Shown here in pieces: positions 41-31,696 of a stretch of DNA of 39,031 bases. Both the position numbers and the translations under genes were made by a program. Origin of the DNA: a virus. The notes under the pieces are model-generated. The model was not told the origin of the DNA. It did no database searches and worked only from the letters and a program-made list of their open reading frames with translations. The stretch lies in UHGV virus genome UHGV-0112814. One strand, written 5' to 3'. How positions within the stretch are numbered: position 1 is the first letter of the stretch; each line of letters starts with the position of its first letter.

Positions 41-85
41 GGGTAAAAAGTGGATAAAATAATTTTACCCACCGGATTTTTACCC
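41..85 (+). repeat. Cluster of GGGTAAAA-type motifs (two direct at 41..49 and 52..60, two inverted ttttaccc at 63..70 and 78..85) directly upstream of the int start codon
   Basis: Same motif family as at the other window end; typical of integrase arm-type binding sites. Confidence 0.5.
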
Positions 86-1467
86 ATGCTCACCGTTAAG
101 CAGATTGAAGCAGCAAAGCCGAAAGAAAAACCATACCGCCTTCTCGATGGTAATGGCCTGTACCTTTATGTCCCTGTATCAGGGAAAAAGGTATGGCAGC
201 TTCGCTACAAGATTGACGGTAAGGAGAAAATCCTGACCGTAGGAAAATATCCGCTAATGACTTTGCAGGAAGCAAGAGATAAAGCATGGACCGCGAGGAA
301 AGACATCTCGGTTGGCATCGATCCGGTAAAAGCGAAAAAGGCTTCGTCTAACAACAATTCCTTTAGTGCCATTTACAAGGAATGGTACGAGCACAAGAAG
401 CAAGTCTGGTCAGTAGGCTATGCAACTGAACTTGCCAAAATGTTTGATGACGACATTTTACCCATCATCGGCGGTCTTGAGATTCAGGATATTGAGCCGA
501 TGCAACTGCTGGAAGTAATCCGCAGATTTGAAGATCGCGGTGCAATGGAGCGAGCAAATAAAGCCCGCAGAAGATGCGGCGAGGTTTTCCGTTACGCTAT
601 TGTCACCGGCAGGGCTAAATATAACCCGGCACCTGACCTTGCAGACGCCATGAAAGGATACCGCAAGAAGAACTTCCCGTTTCTTCCTGCAGACCAGATC
701 CCGGCATTCAACAAAGCACTGGCAACATTTTCAGGAAGTATCGTATCGCTCATTGCGACCAAAGTTTTACGCTACACAGCCCTAAGAACGAAAGAGCTTC
801 GCTCCATGCAATGGAAGAACGTCGATTTTGAAAACAGGATTATCACCATCGACGCCAGTGTGATGAAGGGACGCAAAATTCATGTGGTTCCTATGTCAGA
901 CCGTTTCTTCCTGCAGACCAGATCCCGGCATTCAACAAAGCACTGGCAACATTTTCAGGAAGTATCGTATCGCTCATTGCGACCAAAGTTTTACGCTACA
1001 CAGCCCTAAGAACGAAAGAGCTTCGCTCCATGCAATGGAAGAACGTCGATTTTGAAAACAGGATTATCACCATCGACGCCAGTGTGATGAAGGGACGCAA
1101 AATTCATGTGGTTCCTATGTCAGACCAGGTGGTTGAACTTCTCACTACGCTAAGCTCAATCACCAAACCAGTATCAGAGTTTGTTTTTGCCGGGCGCAAC
1201 GATAAGAAGAAGCCAATCTGCGAGAACGCGGTACTGCTTGTGATCAAACAAATCGGCTATGAGGGTCTGGAAAGCGGTCACGGATTCAGGCATGAATTCA
1301 GCACGATTATGAACGAGCACGAATGGCCTGCTGATGCTATTGAAGTGCAACTGGCACATGCCAACGGCGGATCTGTGCGCGGGATTTACAACCATGCTCA
1401 GTATCTCGATAAGCGCAGAGAAATGATGCAGTGGTGGGCGGACTGGCTTGATGGGAAGGCGGGCTAA
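86..1467 (+). pseudogene. int: P4/IntS-type tyrosine integrase, reading frame broken by an internal 224-bp tandem duplication (N-terminal fragment ends at stop 1007-1009; C-terminal fragment resumes as ORF 1030..1467)
   Basis: ORF 50..1009 and ORF 1030..1467 share the peptide MQWKNVDFENRIITIDASVMKGRKIHVVPMSD; the second ORF continues into a tyrosine-recombinase C-terminus (HGFRHEF ... GIYNHAQY). ATG at 86 (MLTVKQIEAAKP) preferred over the track start at 50. 224 is not a multiple of 3, so the frame shifts. Confidence 0.85.
677..1124 (+). repeat. Perfect direct tandem duplication, 2 x 224 bp (copy 1 677..900, copy 2 901..1124), with 2-bp CC microhomology at the junction
   Basis: The string ccgtttcttcctgcagaccagatcccggc ... 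gttcctatgtcaga occurs twice back to back, identical by eye. Confidence 0.9.
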
Positions 1468-1754: not shown

Positions 1755-2804
1755 TTGAAACTTAATGATATTTTAAAGAAAGAAAATAACAATATAGATA
1801 TATTCAGAGTCATAGCTGCATGTCTGGTTATATGGGGACACGCTTATGTAATATCACCTGAAGTTGGGAAAAGTGATTTTATCACTTACCTTTTACCTCA
1901 CGACACTAGCGGTTCTATTGCAGTTAAAATATTCTTTTTCTTAAGTGGCTTAGTTGTTACTAACTCGATATTAACAACAAATAGTCCAATAAAATTTATT
2001 GCATCGAGATTTTTCAGGATATGGCCTGCTTTATTTTTCACATGTATTATTTGTGCATATATCATAGGGCCAATCGTTTCGACTCTTCCTTTGAAAGAGT
2101 ATTTCAATCCTGAAAACAGGATTTACCTTTATGTGTTTAACAATATATCGATGATAACGCAATACAATCTCCCCGGAGTTTTCTTGGATAATCCACACCC
2201 CATAAGTGTAAACGGTTCTTTATGGACAATTCCTTACGAGGTATATGCATATATAATTCTTTTATGTCTGTTTTGTATTGGGATTTACAAAAAACCGCTG
2301 CTAGTAGCATTTTTGGCTGTGGCAATAACATTTGAGTCTGTTTCTAAAATAAAAATTGTTTTTTTTAGCACACCATCTAACCCAGAAGTGCCAATGCTTG
2401 CGGCATGTTTTGCGTTCGGCTCAGTATTGGCCGCATATAAAAATGTAATTTCAATAACGTTAAAAACCTTTATCTCCCTATGGATATTGTATATTCTCCT
2501 TATTGATAACCCATATTCAATGTATCTATCCTATGCGGCAATCTTTATTGCCATACTATACTTATCAAAAACAAACACACTATTAAAGATTAAGCCAAAA
2601 GCTGACATATCCTATGGTGTGTATCTTTGGGGCTTTCCTGTTCAGCAAATCATAGCAATGTATTTTCTTAATAAAGGGGTGCTTTTTAACCAAATCTTAT
2701 CGATTTTTATATGCATAGTTCTTGGTTGGGCGTCATGGCACTTGGTAGAGAAAAGATTTATAAATCTCGGAAAGTTGGTGGGGAACCGCTTATCAGGTAA
2801 ATAA
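1755..2804 (+). CDS. oac: Integral membrane acyltransferase (acyltransferase-3 family), O-antigen acetylase-like serotype-conversion moron; TTG start
   Basis: 349 aa, highly hydrophobic multi-pass protein with an N-terminal IDIFRVIAACLVIWGHAY-type motif typical of acyltransferase-3 enzymes; very AT-rich by eye; sits between int and tailspike as oac does in Sf6-type phages. RBS aggtga upstream of TTG. Confidence 0.7.
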   Translation: MKLNDILKKENNNIDIFRVIAACLVIWGHAYVISPEVGKSDFITYLLPHDTSGSIAVKIFFFLSGLVVTNSILTTNSPIKFIASRFFRIWPALFFTCIICAYIIGPIVSTLPLKEYFNPENRIYLYVFNNISMITQYNLPGVFLDNPHPISVNGSLWTIPYEVYAYIILLCLFCIGIYKKPLLVAFLAVAITFESVSKIKIVFFSTPSNPEVPMLAACFAFGSVLAAYKNVISITLKTFISLWILYILLIDNPYSMYLSYAAIFIAILYLSKTNTLLKIKPKADISYGVYLWGFPVQQIIAMYFLNKGVLFNQILSIFICIVLGWASWHLVEKRFINLGKLVGNRLSGK

Positions 2805-2855: not shown

Positions 2856-5126
2856 TTACAAGCAAGCAGTTAACGGGAATGCAGTGTCTCCAATGTTAAG
2901 GACGACAGCAGCGATATCAATAGCAAAAACAGTACCGACAGGAAGGTTAATATTGACAATAACCTTTTCTTGTGTATCTAGAGAAGCACCTGGCGACATT
3001 TGGGCCACCCTGAAGTGAATAAACCTTCTGTAAAAATTCCCATCGTTTGGTATTGATACTACATTGTCACCCGAGCTTGCAAACCCTCCATTAACAGAAA
3101 CTACTGTTCCAGTGATGCCGCCAACTCCGCCAGCAGTAAACGTTTTAGCATAAAAAGAAAGGCACACATTACACCCCTGAATTTTGGCAGGAGAGATATC
3201 TAATTCAAATTGTAGCTGAAGATATGTTTGATCTGTAGCAGGTGATGTGCATAGTAACTGGAATGCATTTCTTTGCATATCTAATCGGTTTCGCTCATAT
3301 CCTCCTGCTGCAGTATTATTAGTAGTCCTTTTAGTTAGAGTAAAGCTACCTCCGGTTCCATCTGAAACGGCAGTCAACCCGCTTATTCCGAAATTACTAT
3401 TTATAGGAGCAGCGCCAACATATCCATTAATAATATCTGATGCATCCGAAATCTTCACTAGATTTTTTACTCTGCTTTTATATGAAGGCTTGTAAACAGA
3501 TGCGTACTCAGGCTCAATAAGATATCCAATATTATTTAAATTACCATCGTATCTAATAGTGCCAATATCCCAGTTTTTGTGACCAATAATTTCAGGAGAT
3601 TCAATTAACGGGTAGTGATAATGCACAAATGTTGCTTTATCAATAGACAAATCCTCTAATGCTAAATTATTTCCAAATATGAAATATCTACTTACGTGTT
3701 CAGTATTACCCATATTTGCATAACTACCATTTACTGTTAATCTTTTTACAAATGTAGATGCACCATTATCAACCATTCCGGCACCGCCATCGGCCTTACT
3801 GCCTGTAAAATATGGGTCATCATCATATGATAGCTGGATGCATTTAATTACCTCCCCTTCCTCTGGGCCAAATGGTTTCTCTGAGTAGAAATTTAGAAGT
3901 GTTACATCTGCACAACCAGCTGAAATGATAACATCAGTAAGCATGCCATTGTTTGCTCCTCCTTCAATAACCGTGCGCCAACCGCTAATCCAGTAAGCTA
4001 TCCCGCCACGCGACCAGCCAACACCTTCCACCTTATTGTTTGTTGCCGTCAACAATGTACTCCAAAGATCAACAACTTTACCAAGAACATGATCTTCGTA
4101 GTAACCAGGGCAGCGCACAAAGTTTCGTGTATTCACCCTATCAGCTATGAAATCGGTATGGGCCTCGAACAAGCAATCCCTTACCGATACCCTCCAGTTG
4201 TTAAATTCGGCATTAACAGCCCAGGAGCCATCTCCGCCAAACGCACGGAATTCGCAATTAGATACATCGCAATAAGTTACCCAATGAGCAAAATTTATTG
4301 CATATCCTGATGTTGCCCCCCCCTTAAAAACAGCACCTTCAATACTGTAGTGCTTATTAAACGGGGTCTTACCAGTAGCTCCGTTGTAGTCTCCGCTTAG
4401 ATCATATGGGCCCATGTTAAAGGCGTTTCCTGAGCCTAAGTAATGGAATACAGTTCCTTCGCAGATAATTCTTACCGGTCTGGTGAAATGCATGTCTTTA
4501 GAATATGAGATTGTACCTGGTGGGAATAGCACTCCAACAGGAATTCCATCAGTATTAGGTATCGCGTTCACATACTCCACGAAAGCGTTGATCGCATCAG
4601 TAGAGTCAGTACCATCCATCTTTACACCAAAGTCCTGTGGTGTGATGAAATCCTGATTTTTATCGTGTTGCGTCCTGTGTATTGCACCAATCGCAGGGAG
4701 GTGAACACCAATCAGCGCATCACCCTTTGTATCGTCATCGATATAACTGCCATCTTGAGCAAGCTGGTCTTTGAAGTCAGGACCAAACTGATCAGGGTCA
4801 TACTTCAGCACGTTAGGGAAATAGAACTGCTGAGCACCGTACGCATCATAAACAGCCATAGAATGGCCTTGCACAGTTACGAACTTGGCAATCTGTCCGT
4901 TATATACGGGGTAACCAGCAGCGTTAATGATGATTGGTTGCGATACAGGAACGTGAGAGCCGTCTTCGTTCTCTACATAAACCTGAATCTGGTTTTCAGG
5001 ATTTACCGGGTCAGTGTCAATTTTACCGATATAAATTTTGCCATTGGCTACGGCTTTAAAAGAACGAGCCATAGTGAAGAGTTGCGAAGGCATGCTGACC
5101 ACAACATTTGCGGTGATATCTGACAT
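2856..5126 (-). CDS. Tailspike protein with P22-type N-terminal head-binding domain and a divergent receptor-binding body
   Basis: N-terminus [59 protein letters not shown] closely matches the P22 gp9 N-terminus. Start moved to ATG at 5126 (the track start at 5174 adds 16 aa). Confidence 0.9.
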
Positions 5127-5151
5127 TTCATTGCTCCAGACGAATGATATG

Positions 5152-5174
5152 ATGCAATCATGATGTGATTGCAT
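5152..5174. promoter_or_regulatory. Candidate operator: inverted repeat atgcaatca-tgatg-tgattgcat between the tailspike start and mnt
   Basis: Perfect 9-bp half-sites with a 5-bp spacer in the 120-bp divergent intergenic region. Confidence 0.4.
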
Positions 5175-5247
5175 ACCGAAATGGTACTATTGAGTATTTA
5201 TCCAGTAGGTTACGATGCCATTCCACCCAACTGGTGAGACATCAAGG

Positions 5248-5508
5248 ATGTACAGCAAATACGACGAGGCGCAGTTTCACTTGAGACTTCCGCATGAACT
5301 CCACGCGAAAATTAAGCAGCGTGCGAAGATGAATAACAGGTCGCTGAACTCAGAGATAATTGCAGCGATTGAAGAATCATTGGCTAAACAAAGCTCTGCA
5401 TCAGTTTACATTGACGATGCAGAGCGTATGGCAGAACAACAATCTGATATGGTTAAGAAAATTGTCTTTGATACGCTCAAGGAGCTATATAAAAAAGACA
5501 GCAACTAA
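5248..5508 (+). CDS. mnt: Mnt-like ribbon-helix-helix repressor
   Basis: FHLRLPHELHAKIKQRAKMNNRSLNSEII ... DDAERMAEQQSDMVKKIVFDTLKELYKK aligns with P22 Mnt; transcribed opposite to the late genes as in P22. Start ambiguous between 5215 and 5248. Confidence 0.8.
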   Translation: MYSKYDEAQFHLRLPHELHAKIKQRAKMNNRSLNSEIIAAIEESLAKQSSASVYIDDAERMAEQQSDMVKKIVFDTLKELYKKDSN

Positions 5509-5597
5509 CCATCCATTACGGAGGATTTATGCAAAGAGATATGATGAATATTGCATTCTACATATTTGGTTTTTGCACTTTCCTGGTGTTTGCAAAG

Positions 5598-7595
5598 CTA
5601 TTCTGACAACGCATCAGACTTAGCCCCCTGAGTCAGAGCGTTAATGGCCTTTTGTGCCTGCTGCATGGCTTTCTCGAACACTGTTGATCCGCGTGGGGTG
5701 TTTGCCATTCGGAGCATTGCATTTCTGAATGGCTCGCTCTCATAGGCGCGAGTAAGAAGTCCGTAGCTTACTGCTGCGCCAGTTGTTGCAGGGTTCATTG
5801 CCGTCCCATACCCAATAATGAACGGGATGGTTTGCTGCCCTGTTGGTGTTGTTACTGCCGCTTTTGCAGCCTGCTGCGTGGATTGAAGGTAGTTTTTCAA
5901 TCCTTTCAGATAAGCGGCTTCCTGACCTTTAAATGTGATGCCAGTCTGGTTTTGCAGGATGTTAAGCTGTCGAAGGAACTGGTCAGGGGAACCACCTGAT
6001 TTCTCCATCGCCTTTCCAATGATGCCATTGCGCATTTGCGCCCTGCCAACACGACCAACTGAGTTATACAGCGTCTTAATTTCCGATTTGTTCTTGCTGA
6101 ATAGCATGTTGTTGACAACTTCCGGCGTCAGGTCGCCTTTCATGAGAACATTCTTCAGCCTTGTATTCTTTAATTTCGCCGCTTCGTCAGCGTAGACGGC
6201 ATTGGCCTGCTGATATTTACGGAGAGTATCGTTGCCAAGATTCTGACCAATGGCACCATTGATATCGTCTGTCATCGCCTTGTAAACGCGCTGAATGGCA
6301 GCATCGGAACGGTTTGGTAACACTGGTCGTTCCCCCTTCACGTCCATTCTGAACTGGCTGCGCAGATCGCTTAATTGCTTCAAGTCCAGATTTACCGGAC
6401 CATCAGGACCAGCATTGCGAATAAGCTCATCACGATAGGATTGAAGTTTTGAAATCGTCTCGTTATCAGCGACCTTACCAAGCTTCTGCAGGTTAGATAT
6501 TTCTGTATCAATCTGCTGAATTGCTCGAGCAGGCTGGATATTGACTCCCGCCATTGCATTCTGAACCTGCTCAAGACGGTTCCCTGCAGCACGACGAATT
6601 CCTGATGTTTTCGCTTTAAGGCTGTCAATAACAACAGCTGGATCATACTCACAGAATTTATCAGCAAATCTCTGCACCAACTGGCTTCTCGCTTCCTGTT
6701 GCGTTGCTCTCATTCCGCTTGTGCCAGCCAGGGGGATATTTTCCGCTGTCGTCTGCGCCATTTTCCCGACGCGGGAAGTTGGTTGTAACAGGTCTGTGGT
6801 GTGCAGAGGGACTCCTTCACGCTCTGCAAATCTGATAGCCTGCTGCGCTTCTGGCGCAATAGCACCGCGAACGCCACGATAAGCAGCACCTAATCCACGT
6901 CCAGCAGCGTTAATAGCGCCGCCTGCCAGAACTCCAACACCTAAATCGGTAGCGAGTGCTTCCGCATCATCTTTCGCACTATTTACAGCAAGTGATCCAA
7001 CTGCGTTTTCTGCTAGAAGGCGAGTTGCCCCATGAGCAATTCGACCAGCAAGTGTTGGTGCCTGTACCGACGCTCTCTCAACGCCAGCAGGAGTGAGGTA
7101 AGGCAATGCTTCAGCAAATACCCTTCCCTCTGTCGTTTGTGGAGTCAGCGCACCTTGCTGAAGGCCAAAGTCCTGCTCTAATCCCTGCGTTGTTACTCGT
7201 GGTGCTGGTTGATATGTACCATCGCCAATGCCGAGTTTACCGCCAGCCCAAGCCGCCGCGCTTGTTACAGCATCGGCAACTGATGCAGGTATGTTTGCCA
7301 CGTTCACGCCAGCCTGCACCAGTCCACGACCAGTCTCTTTTACTGCTTCACCAAGATCAGGCATAAATCCATTTTGCTGTGGTTGTTGCTGTGCTACTGG
7401 TTGTTGTGTCTCCACTGGCTGCACAGATGGCAATGGATAGGCAGCATAGAAAGCTTGCTTAGCCTGCTCTGCATTTTCTCCGGCTTGCGGGGCCACGACT
7501 TCATTGAAGTATTGCTCCTGAGCCTGCGCTTTTTGTTCTGGTGCTAACGCCTGATACTGTGGAGAGGCGATAACATCTTTCCATGCTTTAGCCAT
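5598..7595 (-). CDS. DNA ejection/internal virion protein (P22 gp16-like)
   Basis: 665 aa; position and order (gp7-gp20-gp16 upstream of the tailspike) as in P22; Ala/Gln-rich. Confidence 0.7.
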   Translation of the reverse strand: MAKAWKDVIASPQYQALAPEQKAQAQEQYFNEVVAPQAGENAEQAKQAFYAAYPLPSVQPVETQQPVAQQQPQQNGFMPDLGEAVKETGRGLVQAGVNVANIPASVADAVTSAAAWAGGKLGIGDGTYQPAPRVTTQGLEQDFGLQQGALTPQTTEGRVFAEALPYLTPAGVERASVQAPTLAGRIAHGATRLLAENAVGSLAVNSAKDDAEALATDLGVGVLAGGAINAAGRGLGAAYRGVRGAIAPEAQQAIRFAEREGVPLHTTDLLQPTSRVGKMAQTTAENIPLAGTSGMRATQQEARSQLVQRFADKFCEYDPAVVIDSLKAKTSGIRRAAGNRLEQVQNAMAGVNIQPARAIQQIDTEISNLQKLGKVADNETISKLQSYRDELIRNAGPDGPVNLDLKQLSDLRSQFRMDVKGERPVLPNRSDAAIQRVYKAMTDDINGAIGQNLGNDTLRKYQQANAVYADEAAKLKNTRLKNVLMKGDLTPEVVNNMLFSKNKSEIKTLYNSVGRVGRAQMRNGIIGKAMEKSGGSPDQFLRQLNILQNQTGITFKGQEAAYLKGLKNYLQSTQQAAKAAVTTPTGQQTIPFIIGYGTAMNPATTGAAVSYGLLTRAYESEPFRNAMLRMANTPRGSTVFEKAMQQAQKAINALTQGAKSDALSE

Positions 7596-8983
7596 TAATC
7601 ACCCCATAGTGAAGAAAAGTTACTGCTGGCTGCTGGCTGTGATACCTGTGCAGGTTGAGATTGCTTCCGCTGAGATTTACCAACATTAACGTTATATTGT
7701 TGGTTGTAATTGTTGGTGTATTCCTGAATTTCACGAATCGACTGCTGCATAGCCTCCGGGCTTGAATAGTCAACCTGCGGCATCCCCTGAAAATACATCT
7801 TCGCTTCTGCAACGGTGTTAATACCACTGGCACCCATGTCCCTTGCTGCCGCCACACCCTGATTCTGCATTCTGCCCTGAATACGTTGTGCTGAGTTATA
7901 TAACTGGCGCTGCTCTTTTCCCGTTAATCGGCTGCGAACATCAGCACCAATTGCTGGATTACCTGCACCGCCTGTCATTCCTGTCATGAAATCGAGAGCA
8001 GAAGCGTCTGCATTTGCGATCGCGTCGATATCCTTCTTCATGGCATAGTTTTGTGCTGATGCAGACGATGTTGCAGGCGCAGCGATTGAACTGGCAGGGA
8101 CGCGAACCATATTCCCCTCGTTGTCGATGCCTTCGTAGAACGCATTAGCCCCAGCGCCATGAAGCTTCCCGCCTACCGTTACAGTTCTGCCATCTGATAA
8201 CTGAACTGTACGCTCATCATTCCCAGCGATTCCTCTTGTTGACGCTCGCTGCATTGCCAAATCCTGACCTCGTCGCGCAGTAGAAGCAGATAAGTCCTGA
8301 CCGCGCATCGTGATGTTCTGGCCTCGTGCTGTTAGCGCCTCGCCAGCCTGATTTCTGCGGATTGTCTCTGCAAGTTTCCCGCGATCAATCTCACGACCAG
8401 CCATCTTGTCCTGAACATTGAAGTAATCAATTGGACCAAGAGCAGCCATTCCAAGGTGATCAACAAACTCACCAAATCCTGAAGGGTTCTGCTGATACAT
8501 CTGAGCAACGCTGTTAGGGTCAACACCTACGCGAGTCAGTTCCTTGGCGTTGTTTTGCAGCCATGATTGCATCGCTTCTGGAGACGATGCCGCAAGGCGA
8601 GCGCCAGCCGCTAAGGTACCGATGGAATTGCGCTGGTCTTCATCAATGAATCCCATGCCTTTACGAACGGATTCAATCTGGTCTGGATATTCAGTAGCTA
8701 ACTGACGCAAAGCACCGCGATCACCAGACGCATAAGCATTAGCGTATGCCTGCTGAAATTCTTTCTGCCGATGAGCCTGCTTTTCCTGCTGAAACACCCC
8801 CGCAATACCTGAAAGGCCTTGCAAAGCAGTCAGCCCAACATTGTTAGCGCCTGAACGCTCAATATCATTGTTCTGCCTGATAAGCTGAAGCGTATTGCCG
8901 ATGTCATTTACGTTCGGAGCGTTTGAGTTGACACCACCGATACCAGCCAACAATCCGCCATTTGTTCCTTGCCAAGTAGCCAT
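7595..8983 (-). CDS. DNA ejection protein (P22 gp20-like)
   Basis: 462 aa, Gly/Ala/Gln-rich, synteny with P22 gene 20 (471 aa). Confidence 0.7.
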
Positions 8984-8992
8984 GATTACCCC

Positions 8993-9688
8993 TTAAAACA
9001 ACGATCCAAGCAGGCCAAGTCCGCCGCCAATTGCCGCACCTAATCCAGTGCCAAGTCCTGGAACAATAGAGCCAAGAGCAGCGCCAGTCATAGCCCCTGA
9101 AGCTCCGCCGCTAATTGCTGTCTGAAGACCTGATGGTTTATTGGCATTAGCAGCGGCAAGAGCCGCACTTTGCTGCAAAATCTGACTCATGTTGTTGGCG
9201 TATGTCTGCCCGGCGTTTGCCTGACCTTGCAGAGCACCAAGACCAACGTTTGCCAGATTGTTGTAATTGCTCATCTGGTTTGATAACCAAGACTGACCGA
9301 GTGTCGGCGCGATCGTAGCCAGTTGATTGCTTGTGGCTGTCGAACCAAGTCCGCCAGTCGCTTCAGCAGCAGCAAGACTCTGGTAACGAGCCTGACCTGC
9401 AAGGTCTTTATACTGCTGAGAGTTGTAATACTGATTAAGTGCCTGCCCCTGACCTTCTAAACTGGAAAGGTTCTGAAGCTGGTTAACATACTGCTCCGCA
9501 AGAGGCGTGAACGGAGCAAGGTTTTTCATGATCGTCTGCCACTGCTGATTTTGCAGGTCTGCGTCATACTTCTGGGCTTCTGCTGCATACTTTGCGCTTT
9601 TATCAGAGCTACCACCTTTCCCGCCTTTTTCATGGCACCAAGGTTCCTCGCCGCGCAGTTTTCTGCCCAGCTTAAATGCATATAACAT
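8993..9688 (-). CDS. DNA ejection protein (P22 gp7-like)
   Basis: N-terminus MLYAFKLGRKLRGEEP...EKGGKGGS resembles P22 gp7; 231 aa versus 229 aa. Confidence 0.8.
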   Translation of the reverse strand: MLYAFKLGRKLRGEEPWCHEKGGKGGSSDKSAKYAAEAQKYDADLQNQQWQTIMKNLAPFTPLAEQYVNQLQNLSSLEGQGQALNQYYNSQQYKDLAGQARYQSLAAAEATGGLGSTATSNQLATIAPTLGQSWLSNQMSNYNNLANVGLGALQGQANAGQTYANNMSQILQQSAALAAANANKPSGLQTAISGGASGAMTGAALGSIVPGLGTGLGAAIGGGLGLLGSLF

Positions 9689-27670: not shown

Positions 27671-28531
27671 TCACCTGTCGAAAAACACGTAGCCAGTTTT
27701 CGATACGGTGATTGCGGATGATGGTTTGGATTGTGGTTGAATAGTTTCTGGCTTCTCGTCGTTCCAGCGCTGACCGTTCAGGTAGCTCGATGGTAACAAC
27801 CTGTCGAATCCGAACTGCTTACCATTCCTGCATGCGATGTCTTCTGCCAGCATCGTGGCAAACTCGCTTGCCGTACCCCTGGTAGTTTTACGCCATTCCC
27901 TGAACTGTGTTCTGAATGCCGAAGCTGCGTTTTTCTTCCCGGCTTTCCGCATGCCTGCACACCAGAATATTTCCTCGAATGCCTTGTCGGTTTCTTCGTG
28001 ACGGTCAGGTGATTTTTCACACTCCGTCCGAACACTTTCGGACATAGTGTTTTTATTATTTCTTTTTTCTTTTGTAATAGTTTCTTTTGTGTGTCCCTGT
28101 TTTGGTGACAGCGCTGTCACCGTTTTGGTGACACTTTTTGTCACCAATGCAGTGACATTATCACCAGAGTAGTGACACCCTTCGATTTGCCATTCTTCGA
28201 TGTTCTTGTTAGGCCCGATTTGCTGGCCTTCGCGAAGGATAACCTTCATCGCGATAAGCTCATTCTTGGCCTTGTTTACCTTCTGTCTTGGCAGCCTGGT
28301 AATTTGAGCTAACTGACTATCAGAAATGCGATCCATCTTTTTACCGTAGCCGTATGTTTTACGGCATATGGCGTGGGCAACCTTGCTCTGATTTTTCGTT
28401 AAATCTGCGCCGATAAGCTCTTCATACAGGGCATTTGCAAGACGGGTATAACCATCTTCAACTTCTGCCACACGACGCTCCACAGGCCGTTGTGAAGGCC
28501 TTAAATGTGTTACGGTTGCAAGATTACTCAT
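27671..28531 (-). CDS. Replication initiator with lambda O-like N-terminal domain
   Basis: N-terminal [37 protein letters not shown] resembles the phage O N-terminal domain; ori iterons lie inside the gene. Confidence 0.75.
28100..28180. repeat. Candidate replication origin iterons (GTGACA/TGTCAC core repeated about 6 times in both orientations) next to an AT-rich stretch at 28050..28095
   Basis: tttggtgacag / ctgtcaccg / ttttggtgacac / tttttgtcacc / agtgacatt / agtgacaccc inside the O-like gene, as lambda ori lies inside O. Confidence 0.55.
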
Positions 28532-28679
28532 GACCTTTCTCCTTCTGCATCAGCTTCACTTTTTCCAACTCAGCCCGGAATCGACCAGGCTGCTTGAAGC
28601 TGGACAGGAAGCGATCACGTAGTATGTGTTTGTGAATTTTGTCTGGTAAGGACTGAGTTGTTTTGTCATAATGACTCCT

Positions 28680-28757
28680 GTTGATAGATCCAGTAATGAC
28701 CTCAGAATTCCATCTGGATTTGTTCAGAACGCTCGGTTGCCGCCGGGCGTTTTTTAT
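28680..28757 (+). ncRNA. oop: oop antisense RNA (lambda-like), overlapping the 3' end of cII
   Basis: gttgatagatccagtaatgacctcagaa(t)tccatctggatttgttcagaacgctcggttgccgccgggcgttttttatt is near-identical to lambda oop, including its terminator. Confidence 0.75.
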
Positions 28758-28995
28758 TGGTGAGAATCGAAGCAACTTGTCGTGCCAATCGAGCCATGTC
28801 GTCGTCAACGACCCCCCATTCAAGAACAGCAAGCAGCATTGAGAACTTTGGAATCCAATCCCTCTTCCACCTGCTGATCTGCGACTTATCAACTCCCACA
28901 GCTTCCGCTGTCTTCTCAGTTCCAAGCATTGCGATTTTGTTAAGCAACGCACTCTCGATTCGTAGAGCCTCGTTGCGTTTGTTTGCACGAACCAT
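28702..28995 (-). CDS. cII: CII transcriptional activator (lambda CII)
   Basis: [62 protein letters not shown] ... is essentially lambda CII. Confidence 0.95.
28973..28986 (+). promoter_or_regulatory. pRE -35 region with CII-binding TTGC-N6-TTGC direct repeat
   Basis: ttgcgtttgtttgc inside the 5' end of cII, oriented toward cI as in lambda. Confidence 0.6.
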
Positions 28996-29074
28996 ATGTA
29001 AGTATTTCCTTAGATAACAATTGATTGAATGTATGCAAATAAATGCATACACCATAGGTGTGGTTTAATTTGAT

Positions 29075-29106
29075 GCCCTTTTTCAGGGCTGGAATGTGTA
29101 AGAGCG
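29075..29106 (-). promoter_or_regulatory. nutR (boxA cgctctta at 29099..29106; boxB gccctgaaaaagggc at 29075..29089), followed by tR1-like sequence
   Basis: Minus strand reads cgctcttacacattccagccctgaaaaagggcatcaaattaaacc..., matching lambda nutR. Confidence 0.85.
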
Positions 29107-29114
29107 TTGATAAC

Positions 29115-29345
29115 TTAAGCAGCCATTAATTCAGGCCAGATGCTTTCCCAATCAACCGGATGAAGGTCTTTGCGAGTCACTTCACCATTGCTGAACTTCT
29201 CAATCAGAACACAAAGTGCTGCGCCCAATTCATGATTACGGCTAAGTGCTTTCCTCAAATAGCCGATAGAAGTTCCGCACTTGGTGGCAAATTCTCTCTG
29301 CTCTTCCAGTGAAAGGGAGTTCAGATACAAGCGGAGTTCTTCCAT
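29115..29345 (-). CDS. cro: Cro-like repressor (non-lambda specificity)
   Basis: 76-aa ORF divergent from cI across the operator region, RBS aaggag; HTH-like segment TKCGTSIGYLRKAL. Confidence 0.7.
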   Translation of the reverse strand: MEELRLYLNSLSLEEQREFATKCGTSIGYLRKALSRNHELGAALCVLIEKFSNGEVTRKDLHPVDWESIWPELMAA

Positions 29346-29377
29346 TTGCTATCTCCTTCCCGTTGTTGAATAAGGTG

Positions 29378-29406
29378 AGTTTACCTGCAGGTAAAAAACA
29401 AATCAA
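29378..29406 (-). promoter_or_regulatory. Putative pR promoter (-35 ttgatt, -10 taaact) overlapping operators
   Basis: Minus strand: ttgatt-17 nt-taaact upstream of the cro RBS. Confidence 0.5.
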
Positions 29407-29433
29407 TACCCACAGGTTATTTACCGATAGGTA
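29382..29433. promoter_or_regulatory. oR: three operator sites (29382..29393 perfect TACCTGCAGGTA; 29407..29418 and 29422..29433 variants)
   Basis: 12-bp palindrome and two degenerate copies in the cro-cI intergenic region. Confidence 0.6.
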
Positions 29434-29453
29434 ATCAAAGATAGAATTAAATC

Positions 29454-30140
29454 ATGGATAAATACGAACAAAGACGACTAAGGCTGATAGAGATAAGAGA
29501 CCGATTCTGTAATGGAAAGGCCTCAGAGTTGGCTCGTCGAATAGAAAGGGAACCATCATACGTTTCCAGAATGCTGTATCCGGAAGGAAAAAGCGGAAAA
29601 AAACGCATTGCTGACGATATGATGGAACTAATTGAAAAATCTTTTAATCTCCCACGCGGATGGATGGACATGCTTGCAGATAGCAAAGTTGGATCTGCAG
29701 ACCATCTTGAGTTTGCGGGTAACGTTCGTGCGGGTTTTGTTCCGGTAATTGGTGAAGCCGTTTTGGGAGTTGATGGCTCAGTGGATATGATTGAATTCAG
29801 ATCCGGTTGGTTAAGCATCTACAGTGGCGATAAAGATGCTTACGGTCTGAAGGTTAAGGGTGACAGCATGTGGCCAAGGATTCAGTCAGGAGAATATGTT
29901 GTTATTGAACCAAATACGCCAGTACATCCAGGTGATGAAGTCTTTGTAAGGACCAAAGATGGTCATAACATGATAAAGATCATGAACAAAACAAGAGACG
30001 GAGACTATCAGTTTAGTAGTATAAACAGCGATCACCGTCCAATCACTCTTCCTGTTGAAGAAGTTGATAAAATGCATTTTGTTTCAGCTATTGTGAAACA
30101 CACTAGGTACGTAGACCAGGACGATCTGCCAAAATTTTGA
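29454..30140 (+). CDS. cI: CI-type prophage repressor with C-terminal S24 (LexA-like) autopeptidase domain
   Basis: 228 aa; C-terminal GDSMWPRI ... GDEVFVR ... IKI is a LexA/S24 Ser-Lys dyad pattern; divergent from cro. Confidence 0.9.
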   Translation: MDKYEQRRLRLIEIRDRFCNGKASELARRIEREPSYVSRMLYPEGKSGKKRIADDMMELIEKSFNLPRGWMDMLADSKVGSADHLEFAGNVRAGFVPVIGEAVLGVDGSVDMIEFRSGWLSIYSGDKDAYGLKVKGDSMWPRIQSGEYVVIEPNTPVHPGDEVFVRTKDGHNMIKIMNKTRDGDYQFSSINSDHRPITLPVEEVDKMHFVSAIVKHTRYVDQDDLPKF

Positions 30141-30451
30141 GGATAAAGCAGCAAATGTTTATACCAGGTATAGTGGTCGCTGTTGTAATCATCTGCTTCA
30201 TATGGGCAAAGTTATCTCCTGTAAGCTCTAAGCATACAGCTGAACTCATGAAGAAGAAGCATCTTATACATGAGGCAGAAACGATAATTAAGAAGTTCAA
30301 AGGCATGTCATATGACGACATGTCATCAGATCAGATTGCTATGTATAAATGCGCCATTGAGCGTCTTGACCACTTAAACGGACTCAAACCCAAACACACC
30401 CCGGTAGAATCAAAATTGCCGCAATGGCCAAGCAATCCAAATAGCTTCTGA
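30137..30451 (+). CDS. Small membrane-anchored protein co-transcribed with cI (candidate lysogen-expressed exclusion function)
   Basis: 104 aa; N-terminal TM helix MFIPGIVVAVVIICFIWA; start overlaps the cI stop; followed by a strong terminator. Confidence 0.6.
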   Translation: MRIKQQMFIPGIVVAVVIICFIWAKLSPVSSKHTAELMKKKHLIHEAETIIKKFKGMSYDDMSSDQIAMYKCAIERLDHLNGLKPKHTPVESKLPQWPSNPNSF

Positions 30452-30462
30452 CATCTCCTTTC

Positions 30463-30486
30463 AGCCCGCAAAGCGGGCTTTTTTAT
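30463..30486 (+). terminator. Intrinsic terminator ending the cI operon
   Basis: agcccgc-aaa-gcgggct perfect stem followed by ttttttata. Confidence 0.75.
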
Positions 30487-30548
30487 ATCAATCCAAAAAA
30501 TTAATTACCTGAAAATTCAAACAGGTAAACTCTCACACCAATTTTATT

Positions 30549-30585
30549 TACCTGCAGGTATAGACAACAGTTTTACCTGCAGGTA
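30549..30585. promoter_or_regulatory. oL: two perfect TACCTGCAGGTA operators (30549..30560, 30574..30585) overlapping pL
   Basis: Same 12-bp palindrome as in oR, centre-to-centre spacing 25 bp. Confidence 0.6.
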
Positions 30586-30589
30586 TATT
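30561..30589 (+). promoter_or_regulatory. pL promoter (-35 tagaca, -10 tatatt), predicted +1 near 30597
   Basis: 17-bp spacing; downstream leader atcagcaggacgcac... matches the lambda pL transcript start. Confidence 0.55.
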
Positions 30590-30630
30590 TTAAGCCATCA
30601 GCAGGACGCACTAACCACCATGAAGGTGAT

Positions 30631-30660
30631 GCTCTTAAAAATTAAGCCCTGAAGAAGGGC
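30631..30660 (+). promoter_or_regulatory. nutL (boxA gctcttaaa, boxB gccctgaagaagggc at 30646..30660)
   Basis: gctcttaaaaattaagccctgaagaagggcagca matches lambda nutL. Confidence 0.85.
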
Positions 30661-30858
30661 AGCATTCAAAGCAGAAGTCTTTTGGATTGGATGAATGCGC
30701 AGGCTGATGCTCGACCAATGTATAAACAGCGCTCATGGCAAGCAGTAACCAATCTGCGCCTCAAGACAGCGTCACTGGTAGTGCGGGCGCTCTAACCAGT
30801 AAGCCGGAGTTCAGCGCCGGCCATCCAATCACCAAAGCTAACTGACAGGAGAATCCAG

Positions 30859-31185
30859 ATGGATGCACAAACACGCCGCCGCGAACGTCGCGCAGAGAAA
30901 CAGGCTCAATGGAAAGCAGCAAATCCCCTGTTGGTTGGGGTAAGCGCAAAACCAGTTAACCGCCCTATTCTCTCGCTGAATCGCAAACCGAAATCACGAG
31001 TAGAAAGCGCACTGAATCCGATAGACCTTACGGTGCTGGCTGAATACCACGAACAGATTGAAAGCAACCTGCAACGTATTGAGCGCAAGAATCAGCGCAC
31101 ATGGTACAGCAAGCCACGCAGTGAAATGGGTGTGACTTGTGTTGGTCGCCATAAAACGAAGGGCAAATCCATCGCATTAATCTGA
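30859..31185 (+). CDS. N: Antiterminator N (lambda N)
   Basis: MDAQTRRRERRAEKQAQWKAANPLLVGVSAKPVNRPILSLNRKPKSRVESALNPIDLTVLAEYH ... is lambda N, including the Arg-rich boxB-binding motif. Confidence 0.95.
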   Translation: MDAQTRRRERRAEKQAQWKAANPLLVGVSAKPVNRPILSLNRKPKSRVESALNPIDLTVLAEYHEQIESNLQRIERKNQRTWYSKPRSEMGVTCVGRHKTKGKSIALI

Positions 31186-31193
31186 GGTGGCCC

Positions 31194-31295
31194 ATGAAGA
31201 ACAGCATCAAGTGCCCGGTATGCGGTCGTGACTTCGATCCACGCACTCCGGTCTGCCACATCAGCAAGTATCACCAGTCAGCGAAGAACTGCTAG
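31194..31295 (+). CDS. Small Cys-rich (zinc-ribbon-like) ORF just downstream of N
   Basis: Own translation MKNSIKCPVCGRDFDPRTPVCHISKYHQSAKNC; RBS gaggtgg; below track cutoff. Confidence 0.3.
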   Translation: MKNSIKCPVCGRDFDPRTPVCHISKYHQSAKNC

Positions 31296-31354
31296 CTGGA
31301 GAAGATACGCGATGCCCGGCGGCAATATTTCAAAGTAACAGCGAGTGAGGTTCG

Positions 31355-31696
31355 GTGATGGAAAATAAAACGGCTAACGGGATGTACGTACTGCGTGGTG
31401 AGCTGAAAAAGGGACTGATAGCGGAGCTGGTAAAGGCATACGACCAGCTGACTCAGGAGTCAGAAAAATTAAAGATCCTCGGACTCAGGTATAACACCCC
31501 TCGACGCATTGTTTATGGCTTTATGTATGAGGTTGCAGCATTAACCGTCAAGGAAATTATGTTTAAAACTGAGGGTGGCTTTTACATCCCACAGGATGAC
31601 TTCGAATCGAGCGACGATATCGATTCATTAGCCAAAGAGATCATCGATGTAATTGACTGTAATGGCGCATTCCTTGAGCGCCTTCTTAAGGAGTAG
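31355..31696 (+). CDS. Hypothetical early-left protein (acidic C-terminus)
   Basis: 113-aa ORF with no recognisable motif; first sizeable gene after N. Confidence 0.55.
   Translation: MMENKTANGMYVLRGELKKGLIAELVKAYDQLTQESEKLKILGLRYNTPRRIVYGFMYEVAALTVKEIMFKTEGGFYIPQDDFESSDDIDSLAKEIIDVIDCNGAFLERLLKE

What the first reader, a model, noticed from the sequence alone, without database searches (positions are those of the whole stretch)
30137..30486. Membrane protein co-transcribed with the repressor: candidate prophage-encoded exclusion or defence gene
A 104-aa protein with an N-terminal TM helix starts at the cI stop and is followed by a strong intrinsic terminator, so it would be expressed in lysogens from pRM. 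This is the position lambda uses for rexA/rexB. No homolog is recognisable by eye.
Basis: inference. Interest (0 to 1): 0.7.

Follow-up and report, generated by a model that had tools for sequence, protein, structure and literature searches.

The report
Small membrane gene behind prophage repressor
A real, conserved 98-residue inner-membrane protein gene sits directly behind the prophage repressor gene, and its relatives fill the sieA exclusion slot of P22-like phages, so it is a good but untested candidate for a new phage-exclusion protein.

Summary
The gene most likely starts at ATG 30155 (98 aa), 14 nt after the cI stop, not at TTG 30137 (104 aa). It has an N-terminal transmembrane helix, no terminator separates it from cI, and a strong intrinsic terminator (30463-30486) follows it ahead of OL/pL and N. 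This is the lambda rexAB position.

It is a true coding gene. Only this frame is open in nine homologues, and dN/dS is 0.16-0.27. It belongs to phrog_10450 (function unknown), a small enterobacterial family with no match in Pfam, PADLOC, NCBIfam or the PDB, and no similarity to SieA, SieB or RexB.

The new finding concerns position. Relatives at 33-41% identity occupy one of two slots. Some lie directly after an mEp043-type cI. The rest, 36 of 36 other loci, lie convergent with and abutting P22 gene 16, which is the slot of the injection blocker sieA. Both slots are known homes of lysogen-expressed anti-phage genes.

The cI-gene module occurs in a long-tailed phage (mEp043) and in P22-like prophages, including this window.

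My best reading (about 0.4) is a membrane-level superinfection-exclusion protein. Neither function nor expression has been tested. Interest is moderate.

The parts
28973..28986 (+). TTGC-N6-TTGC, a lambda cII-type binding site (PRE-like) inside the start of the cII gene. It points toward cI and the ORF.
   Evidence: Read from the sequence. The equivalent site is annotated in mEp043 record JQ182734. The cII gene (28702-29055, minus strand) matches Pfam Phage_CII, E 3e-48.
29382..29433 (.). Rightward operator region with three 12-bp sites of the form TACC-N4-GGTA/T (29382-29393, 29407-29418, 29422-29433), between the cro-like gene and cI.
   Evidence: Read from the sequence. The same sites occur in L008 and L009.
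29420..29447 (+). PRM-like promoter (TTTACC, 16 nt, TAGAAT). The -10 hexamer ends 7 nt before the cI ATG and cI has no Shine-Dalgarno, so the cI mRNA is probably leaderless, as at lambda PRM.
   Evidence: Promoter scan. Anti-SD pairing upstream of cI is only -0.9 kcal/mol. The function is inferred.
29454..30140 (+). cI-type repressor, 228 aa, with an S24 autopeptidase domain. It is 98% identical to mEp043 cI.
   Evidence: Pfam Peptidase_S24, E 1.4e-17; phrog_4; mEp043 annotation; identity.
30139..30143 (+). Shine-Dalgarno GAGGA, overlapping the cI stop codon and 11 nt before ATG 30155.
   Evidence: Anti-SD duplex of -6.0 kcal/mol.
30155..30451 (+). The gene under study: a 98-aa bitopic membrane protein of family phrog_10450.
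   Evidence: phrog_10450, E 6.6e-55. Homologues. Only open frame in nine homologues. dN/dS 0.16-0.27.
30158..30214 (+). Transmembrane helix, residues 2-20. There are no Lys/Arg before it and five in the 18 residues after it, which predicts N-out/C-in topology.
   Evidence: Hydropathy and charge counts. Same pattern in all 22 distinct members. The AlphaFold model shows a continuous helix over residues 4-47.
30463..30486 (+). Intrinsic terminator ending the cI-ORF operon (AGCCCGC-AAA-GCGGGCT plus a T run).
   Evidence: Terminator scan. dG -12.6 kcal/mol. An analogous terminator follows the L009 homologue.
30506..30527 (.). Inverted repeat TACCTG-N10-CAGGTA: operator half-sites with unusually wide spacing, between the terminator and OL.
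   Evidence: Read from the sequence. The same arrangement is present in L008 and L009. The function is unknown.
30549..30589 (+). Leftward operators (TACCTGCAGGTA at 30549-30560 and 30574-30585) interleaved with a pL-like promoter (TAGACA, 17 nt, TATATT).
   Evidence: Promoter scan, 10 of 12 matches. A putative PL is annotated at the equivalent place in JQ182734.
30630..30660 (+). nutL: boxA-like TGCTCTTA and boxB hairpin GCCCTGAAGAAGGGC.
   Evidence: Read from the sequence. Hairpin found. 97% DNA identity to the lambda nutL/N region.
30859..31185 (+). Lambda-type antiterminator N, the first gene of the pL operon. It marks the far edge of the rex-equivalent slot.
   Evidence: Pfam N36, E 1.6e-26. 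Annotated as N in related phages.

Best explanation
Window 30155-30451 encodes a 98-residue bitopic inner-membrane protein. Its transmembrane helix starts at the N-terminus. A C-terminal domain of about 75 residues, predicted to face the cytoplasm, forms a helical hairpin followed by a conserved Trp-Pro tail.

The gene is the second and last gene of the repressor operon. It would therefore be made whenever cI is made: from the PRM-like promoter in lysogens, and from the cII-dependent promoter during establishment of lysogeny.

It is accessory cargo of the prophage, not part of the repressor switch. Its most likely job is to protect the lysogen from superinfecting phages at the inner membrane, probably by interfering with genome entry. 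On this reading it is a non-homologous functional analogue of P22 SieA, with P22-like short-tailed phages as the most likely targets.

Shown: gene reality, family, architecture, operon anatomy and the two conserved genomic slots. Inferred: expression in lysogens, topology, the anti-phage function and its mechanism.
For: 1. It is a real, constrained gene. Only this frame is open in nine homologues. dN/dS is 0.16 against mEp043 and 0.27 for L008 against L019. Ten residues are invariant in 23 sequences. Intact 98-aa variants are seen on more than 900 contigs.

2. The operon anatomy fits. There is a 14-nt gap after cI with a Shine-Dalgarno overlapping the cI stop, no terminator before the gene, and a -12.6 kcal/mol terminator after it.

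3. It sits in the rex-equivalent slot between cI and OL/pL/N. That interval is a known hotspot holding rexAB and bstA (PMC8585504).

4. The link to cI is conserved. It holds in 52 of 52 E. coli genomes that carry the gene, in phage mEp043, and in three divergent lineages (L008, L009, L019). In those lineages cI is 83-84% identical to the window's cI while the ORF is 33-41% identical to the window's.

5. All other family members examined (36 of 36 loci) lie convergent with and 1-17 bp (275 bp in one locus) from the P22 gene 16 homologue. This is exactly where P22 carries sieA. None of these loci contains a SieA homologue. [quoted passage not shown]

6. It evolves fast for a constrained protein. 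Its dN is about 6-fold (deep comparisons) to 18-fold (L008 vs L019) higher than that of cI next door. This is compatible with an arms-race gene.

7. It is kept intact in a decayed prophage. In E. coli D7 the gene 16 and Q genes are pseudogenes, but cI and the ORF are intact.

8. The module travels between virion types. It is found in the long-tailed phage mEp043 and in P22-like prophages (window; D7). This fits cargo rather than a virion or replication function.
Against: - No experiment, transcript data or phenotype is available, and no paper on this family was found.
- The protein matches no known exclusion or defence family: PADLOC gave nothing; PHROGs gave only an unknown-function family; hhalign probability against SieA, RexB and SieB was below 1%.
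- Fold searches returned only generic helical hairpins.
- Its architecture (one TM helix plus a cytoplasmic hairpin) differs from SieA, which has several TM helices.
- The sieA slot also holds other unrelated genes of unknown function (phrog_6067, 6823, 24865, 4293). Slot occupancy therefore argues for 'lysogen-expressed cargo' more strongly than for 'injection blocker'.
- The simple promoter scan found no consensus promoter upstream of two stand-alone sieA-slot members.
- A predicted cytoplasmic domain is an unusual place from which to block entry. Against that, the most conserved SieA motif is also predicted to be cytoplasmic.
Confidence: 0.4

Rival explanations
1. It is lysogen-expressed cargo with a function other than defence. 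A membrane-tethered cytoplasmic hairpin could modulate a host inner-membrane machine, for example FtsH/HflKC proteolysis, a transporter or an envelope-stress sensor. That could tune host physiology or the prophage's own stability and induction.
For: The anatomy and the two lysogeny-linked slots fit any prophage cargo gene. The sieA slot holds diverse unknown cargo. The protein matches no defence family. The predicted cytoplasmic orientation suits binding to a host cytoplasmic or membrane partner. It always sits beside a maintenance repressor (cI or Mnt) or alone, and never inside lytic operons.
Against: The characterised occupants of both slots that were checked here are anti-phage: rexAB and bstA and sieA. 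The high dN relative to its neighbours is less expected for a protein that binds a conserved host machine. The family is rare (about 1% of E. coli genomes per allele type) and confined to phage genomes.
Confidence: 0.25
2. It is a single-component abortive-infection effector, RexB-like in logic. The small membrane protein would oligomerise and depolarise or permeabilise the inner membrane when an infecting phage triggers it, killing the cell before phage release.
For: It occupies the same slot as lambda rexAB, whose membrane component RexB is described as an ion channel (PMC8585504; lambda map). It is a small, strongly hydrophobic single-TM protein expressed with cI.
Against: It shows no similarity to RexB (hhalign probability 0.7%), and there is no sensor partner gene in the operon. 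One TM helix plus a soluble hairpin is a weak basis for a regulated channel. Constitutive expression from the repressor promoter would require tight post-translational control.
Confidence: 0.12
3. It is functionally tied to the ejection protein gp16 in the phage's own life cycle, for example as a helper or immunity factor matched to the resident gp16 allele, rather than acting against foreign phages.
For: In P22-like prophages the gene abuts gene 16. The stop codons are 1-17 bp apart, and its alleles co-diverge with the gene 16 alleles (Spearman 0.86 over 120 pairs, which are not independent). The mnt and tailspike genes upstream are mosaic by contrast.
Against: It is transcribed convergently to the late operon. 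The cI-linked branch lies about 22 kb from gene 16 in this window. It also occurs in mEp043, whose listed virion genes are lambda-type long-tail genes with no P22-type ejection-protein genes. Physical linkage alone can explain the co-divergence.
Confidence: 0.08
4. It is a spurious or non-expressed ORF. NCBI's annotation pipeline leaves it unannotated in most RefSeq E. coli genomes.
For: No feature is annotated under the match in most of the 52 RefSeq genomes. The Shine-Dalgarno spacing of 11 nt is long.
Against: The frame is conserved down to 33% identity and all five other frames are closed. dN/dS is well below 1. There are invariant residues. The start-codon position is conserved. The gene is annotated in phage records and in the sieA-slot copies.
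Confidence: 0.03

Closest known systems
[quoted passage not shown]
   Same: Most family members occupy exactly the sieA position, between mnt/tailspike and gene 16 and convergent with gene 16. Both are small inner-membrane proteins carried by temperate enterobacterial phages. In both, a conserved motif is predicted to lie on the cytoplasmic side.
   Different: No sequence similarity was found (hhalign probability 0.7%; BLAST found nothing in any locus). It has one TM helix and 98-114 aa, against 164 aa and several predicted TM helices for SieA. The copy in this window is in the repressor operon, not the sieA slot. Its function is untested.
Lambda RexA/RexB (abortive-infection exclusion system in the cI operon)
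   Same: The operon position is identical: downstream of cI, transcribed with it, terminated before OL/pL and N. RexB is also a membrane protein.
   Different: This is one gene rather than two, with no RexA-like sensor. It shows no similarity to RexB. It has a single TM helix, whereas RexB is multi-pass (my own knowledge).
BstA of Salmonella prophage BTP1 (abortive-infection protein encoded downstream of cI)
   Same: The genomic logic is the same: the gene lies immediately downstream of the repressor, presumably shares its promoter, and has its own Rho-independent terminator (PMC8585504).
   Different: BstA is reported to localise to sites of phage DNA replication (abstract of PMC8585504). It is also much larger and carries a self-immunity DNA element, aba. 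Here the protein is 98 aa and membrane-anchored, and PADLOC gave no hit.
phrog_10450 (PHROGs family of unknown function; includes mEp043 gp049 and phage N7 ORF14)
   Same: Full-length match, E 6.6e-55. N7 ORF14 matches the same family at 3.2e-52.
   Different: Nothing differs: this is the family the gene belongs to. It carries no functional annotation.

Membership tests
phrog_10450 (unknown function) | Full-length significant match to the family profile | tested here: met
   E 6.6e-55 over residues 1-98 of a 98-position profile. Phage N7 ORF14 matches the same profile at 3.2e-52.
phrog_10450 (unknown function) | Shared architecture: TM helix at the extreme N-terminus, conserved K..LI.EA and CA..RL motifs, and W-P near the C-terminus | tested here: met
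   Alignment A3 has invariant K34, I38, E40, A41, M56, C66, A67, L71, W91 and P92. The TM helix lies at residues 1-19 in all 22 distinct members.
SieA (P22 superinfection exclusion A) | Sequence homology to SieA types A, B or C, including the FxRYPxEAxxFNK motif | tested here: not met
   hhalign probability 0.7%. tblastn with P22 SieA found nothing in 42 loci. The motif described in PMC10883804 is absent from the alignment.
SieA (P22 superinfection exclusion A) | Inner-membrane protein with several transmembrane helices | tested here: not met
   Only one hydrophobic segment, residues 2-20; the rest is hydrophilic. The AlphaFold model shows a TM helix plus a soluble hairpin.
SieA (P22 superinfection exclusion A) | Gene located between the homologues of P22 genes 16 and 9 | tested here: inconclusive
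   Met by 36 of 36 non-cI-linked relatives. Not met by the copy in this window, which lies after cI. The window's own slot (5175-5597) holds an mnt-like gene and a 25-aa ORF.
SieA (P22 superinfection exclusion A) | Blocks DNA injection by P22-like phages, with escape mutations in gp16/gp20 | not testable with these tools
   Requires plating, potassium-efflux and escape-mutant experiments like those in PMC10883804.
Lambda RexAB | Two-gene system (sensor RexA plus membrane RexB) with homology to either protein | tested here: not met
   A single gene lies between cI and the terminator. hhalign against RexB gives probability 0.7%. No PHROG or PADLOC Rex hit.
Lambda RexAB | Position downstream of cI in the PRM operon, upstream of OL/pL | tested here: met
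   Window layout compared with the lambda map. Co-transcription is inferred, not measured.
Known anti-phage defence systems (PADLOC-DB v2.0.0) | Match to any defence-protein profile | tested here: not met
   No families matched at E up to 10.
Cor-type exclusion lipoproteins | Lipoprotein signal peptide with a conserved lipobox cysteine | tested here: not met
   There is no positively charged N-region. Cys14 sits in the context V-I-I-C and is replaced by Phe in P0002. No PHROG Cor hit.
SieB (P22/lambda) | Sequence homology | tested here: not met
   hhalign probability 0.1%.

The most novel reading that the evidence does not exclude
phrog_10450 is a previously unrecognised family of superinfection-exclusion proteins that is unrelated to SieA. 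It would block genome delivery by P22-like phages from the cytoplasmic face of the inner membrane by engaging the gp16/gp20 ejection conduit, and it would co-evolve with gene 16. One branch has been captured by the mEp043-type repressor operon, so the same exclusion function now travels with an immunity module between short-tailed and long-tailed phages.
Probability: 0.2. Interest if true: 0.6.

Novelty: new variant of a known kind. Interest (0 to 1): 0.45.

Why it matters
Prophage genes expressed alongside the repressor have been a good source of anti-phage functions such as rexAB and bstA. This family has no annotation, and most RefSeq E. coli genomes that carry it do not even call it as a gene. 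Even so, each of its two allele types is present in about 1% of complete E. coli genomes.

It occupies two separate slots in which known lysogen-expressed anti-phage genes sit. That makes it one of the better-justified small-protein candidates for a new exclusion mechanism. It is cheap to test: 98 codons, and phage mEp043 grows on K-12.

If it does act on genome entry, it would give a second, structurally simple probe of the poorly understood P22-type ejection conduit. It would also account for part of the observation that only 22 of 66 sequenced P22-like phages carry sieA. If it does not, it is an ordinary prophage cargo gene of unknown role.

Tried and rejected
**Profile and homology searches**
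- Pfam, NCBIfam, PADLOC and PDB sequences: nothing significant.
- PHROGs: only the unknown-function family, plus sub-threshold hits to phrog_10423, 30710 and 1077.
- hhalign against P22 SieA, lambda RexB and P22 SieB: no relationship.

**Structure**
- The AlphaFold model built with the family alignment has pLDDT 80.5.
- The AFDB library was unavailable.

**Other searches that gave nothing**
- Rfam over 28500-31500: no hit reached its gathering score.
- tRNA scans: none found.
- Both scans of GTDB species-representative genomes found no relatives, so the hosts of L008, L009 and L019 remain unidentified.
- The first alignment was too divergent for a locus scan.
- The simple promoter scan found no consensus promoter upstream of two stand-alone sieA-slot members. 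This is inconclusive.
- The clear-plaque mutant mEp043 c-1 and the other mEp043 record (PV340537) are identical across 4.9 kb of the immunity region, so the c-1 lesion says nothing about this gene.
- Literature searches for mEp043, sieA, P22-like exclusion and genes downstream of cI found no study of this family.

**Readings rejected**
- The TTG 30137 start.
- A lipoprotein (Cor-like) reading.
- A non-coding or antisense reading.
- Positive selection overall: dN/dS is below 0.3.
Full report
**What the window is.** The window is a P22-like (Lederbergvirus-type) prophage.
- Its virion genes match CUS-3, Sf101, Kapi1 and relatives at 94-96% DNA identity.
- It has a tailspike (2856-5174, minus strand) and homologues of the P22 ejection-protein genes: gene 16 (5598-7595), gene 20 (7595-8983) and gene 7 (8993-9688).
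- Its immunity region comes from elsewhere. The stretch 29100-30900 is 96.6% identical to the long-tailed lambdoid phage mEp043. mEp043 has a tape-measure protein and lambda-type tail genes.

**Checking the observation.** On the + strand the order is as follows:

| Feature | Coordinates | Strand |
|---|---|---|
| cII | 28702-29055 | - |
| cro-like gene | 29115-29345 | - |
| three 12-bp operators, TACC-N4-GGTA | 29382-29433 | . |
| S24-type cI repressor | 29454-30140 | + |
| the ORF | 30155-30451 | + |
| G+C-rich hairpin with T run | 30463-30486 | + |
| two more operators interleaved with a pL-like promoter | 30549-30589 | + |
| lambda nutL | 30630-30660 | + |
| lambda-type N | 30859-31185 | + |

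This is the lambda arrangement with the ORF where rexA-rexB sit (lambda map). The terminator has 7 bp, 6 of them G-C, with dG -12.6 kcal/mol. The transmembrane helix covers residues 2-20 with a mean hydropathy of 2.5.

- TTG 30137 has no Shine-Dalgarno, whereas ATG 30155 has GAGGA at 30139-30143.
- The homologous codon is GTG in mEp043 and L008 and ATG in L009. In L009 an in-frame TAA directly precedes it.
- The PHROG profile and almost all database members are 98 aa long.

cI itself has no Shine-Dalgarno, and a promoter-like TAGAAT ends 7 nt before its ATG. This suggests a leaderless PRM-type transcript, as in lambda. A TTGC-N6-TTGC cII site at 28973-28986 points the same way. No terminator or promoter-like site lies in the 14 nt between cI and the ORF. 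Co-transcription is therefore the natural reading, but it is an inference.

**Is it a gene?** Yes.
- The frame is the only one of six without stops in nine homologues spanning 33-100% identity.
- Against mEp043 there are 6 synonymous and 4 non-synonymous changes, giving dN/dS 0.16.
- Between two moderately diverged relatives, L008 and L019, dS is 0.60, dN is 0.16 and dN/dS is 0.27.
- Ten residues are invariant in a 23-sequence alignment: K34, I38, E40, A41, M56, C66, A67, L71, W91 and P92.
- Intact 98-aa variants are recorded on more than 900 contigs, all named 'hypothetical protein'.
- RefSeq annotation skips the gene in most of the 52 complete E. coli genomes that carry it.

**The family.**
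- The protein matches phrog_10450, function unknown, at E 6.6e-55. It matches nothing in Pfam, NCBIfam, PADLOC or the PDB.
- An exhaustive HMMER scan of 1.84 billion representative proteins found 9 at E <= 0.001 (8 full or partial family-length relatives and one marginal hit to a 1301-aa protein).
- A profile search of 5.8 billion proteins found 26 clusters. All named members come from E. coli, E. fergusonii or Salmonella.
- The AlphaFold model built with the family alignment (pLDDT 80.5) shows one long helix (residues 4-47: the TM segment continuing into the soluble part), a loop, a second helix (58-75) packed as a hairpin, and an extended tail carrying the invariant Trp-Pro.
- In all 22 distinct members there is no Lys or Arg before the TM helix and one to four in the 15 residues after it. 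The positive-inside rule therefore predicts N-out/C-in, with the conserved domain in the cytoplasm.
- Fold searches gave only generic hairpins.

**Where relatives sit.** This is the main new result. Family members occupy two positions and no others among the loci examined.

*After cI.*
- The closest non-trivial relatives, P0006 and P0007 (41% identical; in L008 and L009), and L019 each lie immediately after a cI that is 83-84% identical to the window's cI. In L008 and L019 a downstream N-type gene was also seen; the L009 contig ends before one.
- Their operators are of the same type.
- In complete E. coli genomes the gene and this cI are always found together, in 52 of 52 cases.

*Next to gene 16.*
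- Every other member examined is in a P22-like prophage. This covers 36 loci from phage N7, NCBI, Logan and IMG/VR.
- Each is on the strand opposite gene 16, with the two stop codons 1-17 bp apart (275 bp in one locus). It lies downstream of an mnt-type gene where one is present.
- This is exactly where P22 carries sieA.
- None of these loci has a SieA homologue. The family profile is unrelated to SieA, RexB or SieB.
- The N7-type allele is in 57 of 5426 complete E. coli genomes.

**What the positions mean.**
- Leavitt et al. [quoted passage not shown] It blocks DNA injection by P22-like phages, and escape mutations map to gp16 and gp20. Only 22 of 66 sequenced P22-like phages carry it.
- Owen et al. 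(PMC8585504) describe the cI-N interval as a mosaic hotspot that holds rexAB in lambda and bstA in BTP1, both anti-phage.
- One protein family in both slots is good circumstantial evidence for a lysogen-expressed accessory function, with protection against phages as the leading candidate.
- The evidence has limits. The sieA slot also contains other unrelated genes of unknown function (phrog_6067, 6823, 24865, 4293). Position therefore supports 'cargo' more firmly than 'injection blocker'.

**Other evolutionary observations.**
- Across the deep cI-linked comparisons, synonymous sites are saturated for cro, cI and the ORF alike. The ORF's dN (0.55-0.63) is about six times that of cI or cro (about 0.10).
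- In the shallower L008-L019 pair the ratio is 18-fold.
- The gene is constrained but evolves fast. This is compatible with an arms-race role or with looser constraint. There is no overall signal of positive selection.
- In the sieA slot, the family's alleles co-diverge with the adjacent gene 16 alleles (Spearman 0.86 over 120 non-independent pairs). The mnt and tailspike genes upstream vary freely against the same allele. This could reflect co-adaptation with the ejection protein or simply tight linkage.
- The E. coli D7 prophage has lost intact gene 16 and Q genes but keeps cI and the ORF intact.
- The cI-ORF module occurs with both long-tailed and short-tailed virion gene sets. It is therefore not needed for a particular virion.

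**Verdict.**
- The analogy with the rex position is correct.
- The function remains untested.

I put about 0.4 on membrane-level superinfection exclusion, with genome entry as the most likely step. I put about 0.12 on an abortive-infection membrane effector, about 0.25 on a non-defence lysogenic-conversion or regulatory role, about 0.08 on a gp16-linked role in the phage's own cycle, and about 0.03 on a spurious ORF.

The kind of thing is familiar: a cargo gene in the repressor operon. The protein family and its architecture are new for that kind. Interest is moderate.

Noticed in passing
window 5529-5606 (+): A 25-codon, strongly hydrophobic ORF (MQRDMMNIAFYIFGFCTFLVFAKLF) has a GGAGGA Shine-Dalgarno 5 nt upstream. 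It lies directly after the mnt-like gene (about 5248-5508) in this prophage's own sieA slot and overlaps the 3' end of gene 16 by 9 nt. The DNA is 97% conserved in phage IME10, where it is unannotated. It has no PHROG match. It may be a membrane mini-protein.
   Followed up: partly
window 30506-30527: An inverted repeat TACCTG-N10-CAGGTA lies between the ORF terminator and OL. It uses the operator half-sites with wide spacing (TACC-N14-GGTA), whereas the five ordinary operators are TACC-N4-GGTA. The same arrangement is present in the diverged relatives L008 and L009. Its function is unknown. It could be a third OL site with unusual spacing or a site for another protein.
   Followed up: partly
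window 29420-29456: cI appears to be translated from a leaderless mRNA. The promoter-like -10 hexamer TAGAAT ends 7 nt before the ATG and there is no Shine-Dalgarno, as at lambda PRM.
   Followed up: partly
window 50-1009 and 1030-1467 (+): The integrase is split into two adjacent ORFs of 319 and 145 aa. Both match phrog_1 integrase over overlapping, roughly consecutive parts of the profile. This suggests a disrupted integrase or a sequencing error, so the prophage may be unable to excise.
   Followed up: no
window 1755-2804 (+): An O-antigen O-acetyltransferase-like gene (phrog_3333, E 1e-35) lies next to the tailspike. It is a second probable lysogenic-conversion or exclusion function in this prophage.
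   Followed up: no
RefSeq E. coli genomes, e.g. L018 20001-20630: RefSeq annotation leaves the cI-linked ORF unannotated in most of the 52 complete E. coli genomes that carry it. The sieA-slot relatives, by contrast, are annotated as hypothetical proteins.
   Followed up: yes
loci L003-L006, L010-L016, L020-L044: In P22-like prophages the family gene and gene 16 behave as one inherited block. The stop codons are 1-17 bp apart and the alleles co-diverge, while the mnt and tailspike genes on the other side are mosaic.
   Followed up: partly
L018 (E. coli D7 prophage), 693-1732: The sieA slot of this P22-like prophage holds two other unknown-function genes. One is phrog_6823, with a weak, sub-threshold match (E 0.0044) to the first 20 residues of the Cor exclusion-protein family. 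The other is phrog_6067 (161 aa). This shows that the slot is a general cargo hotspot.
   Followed up: partly
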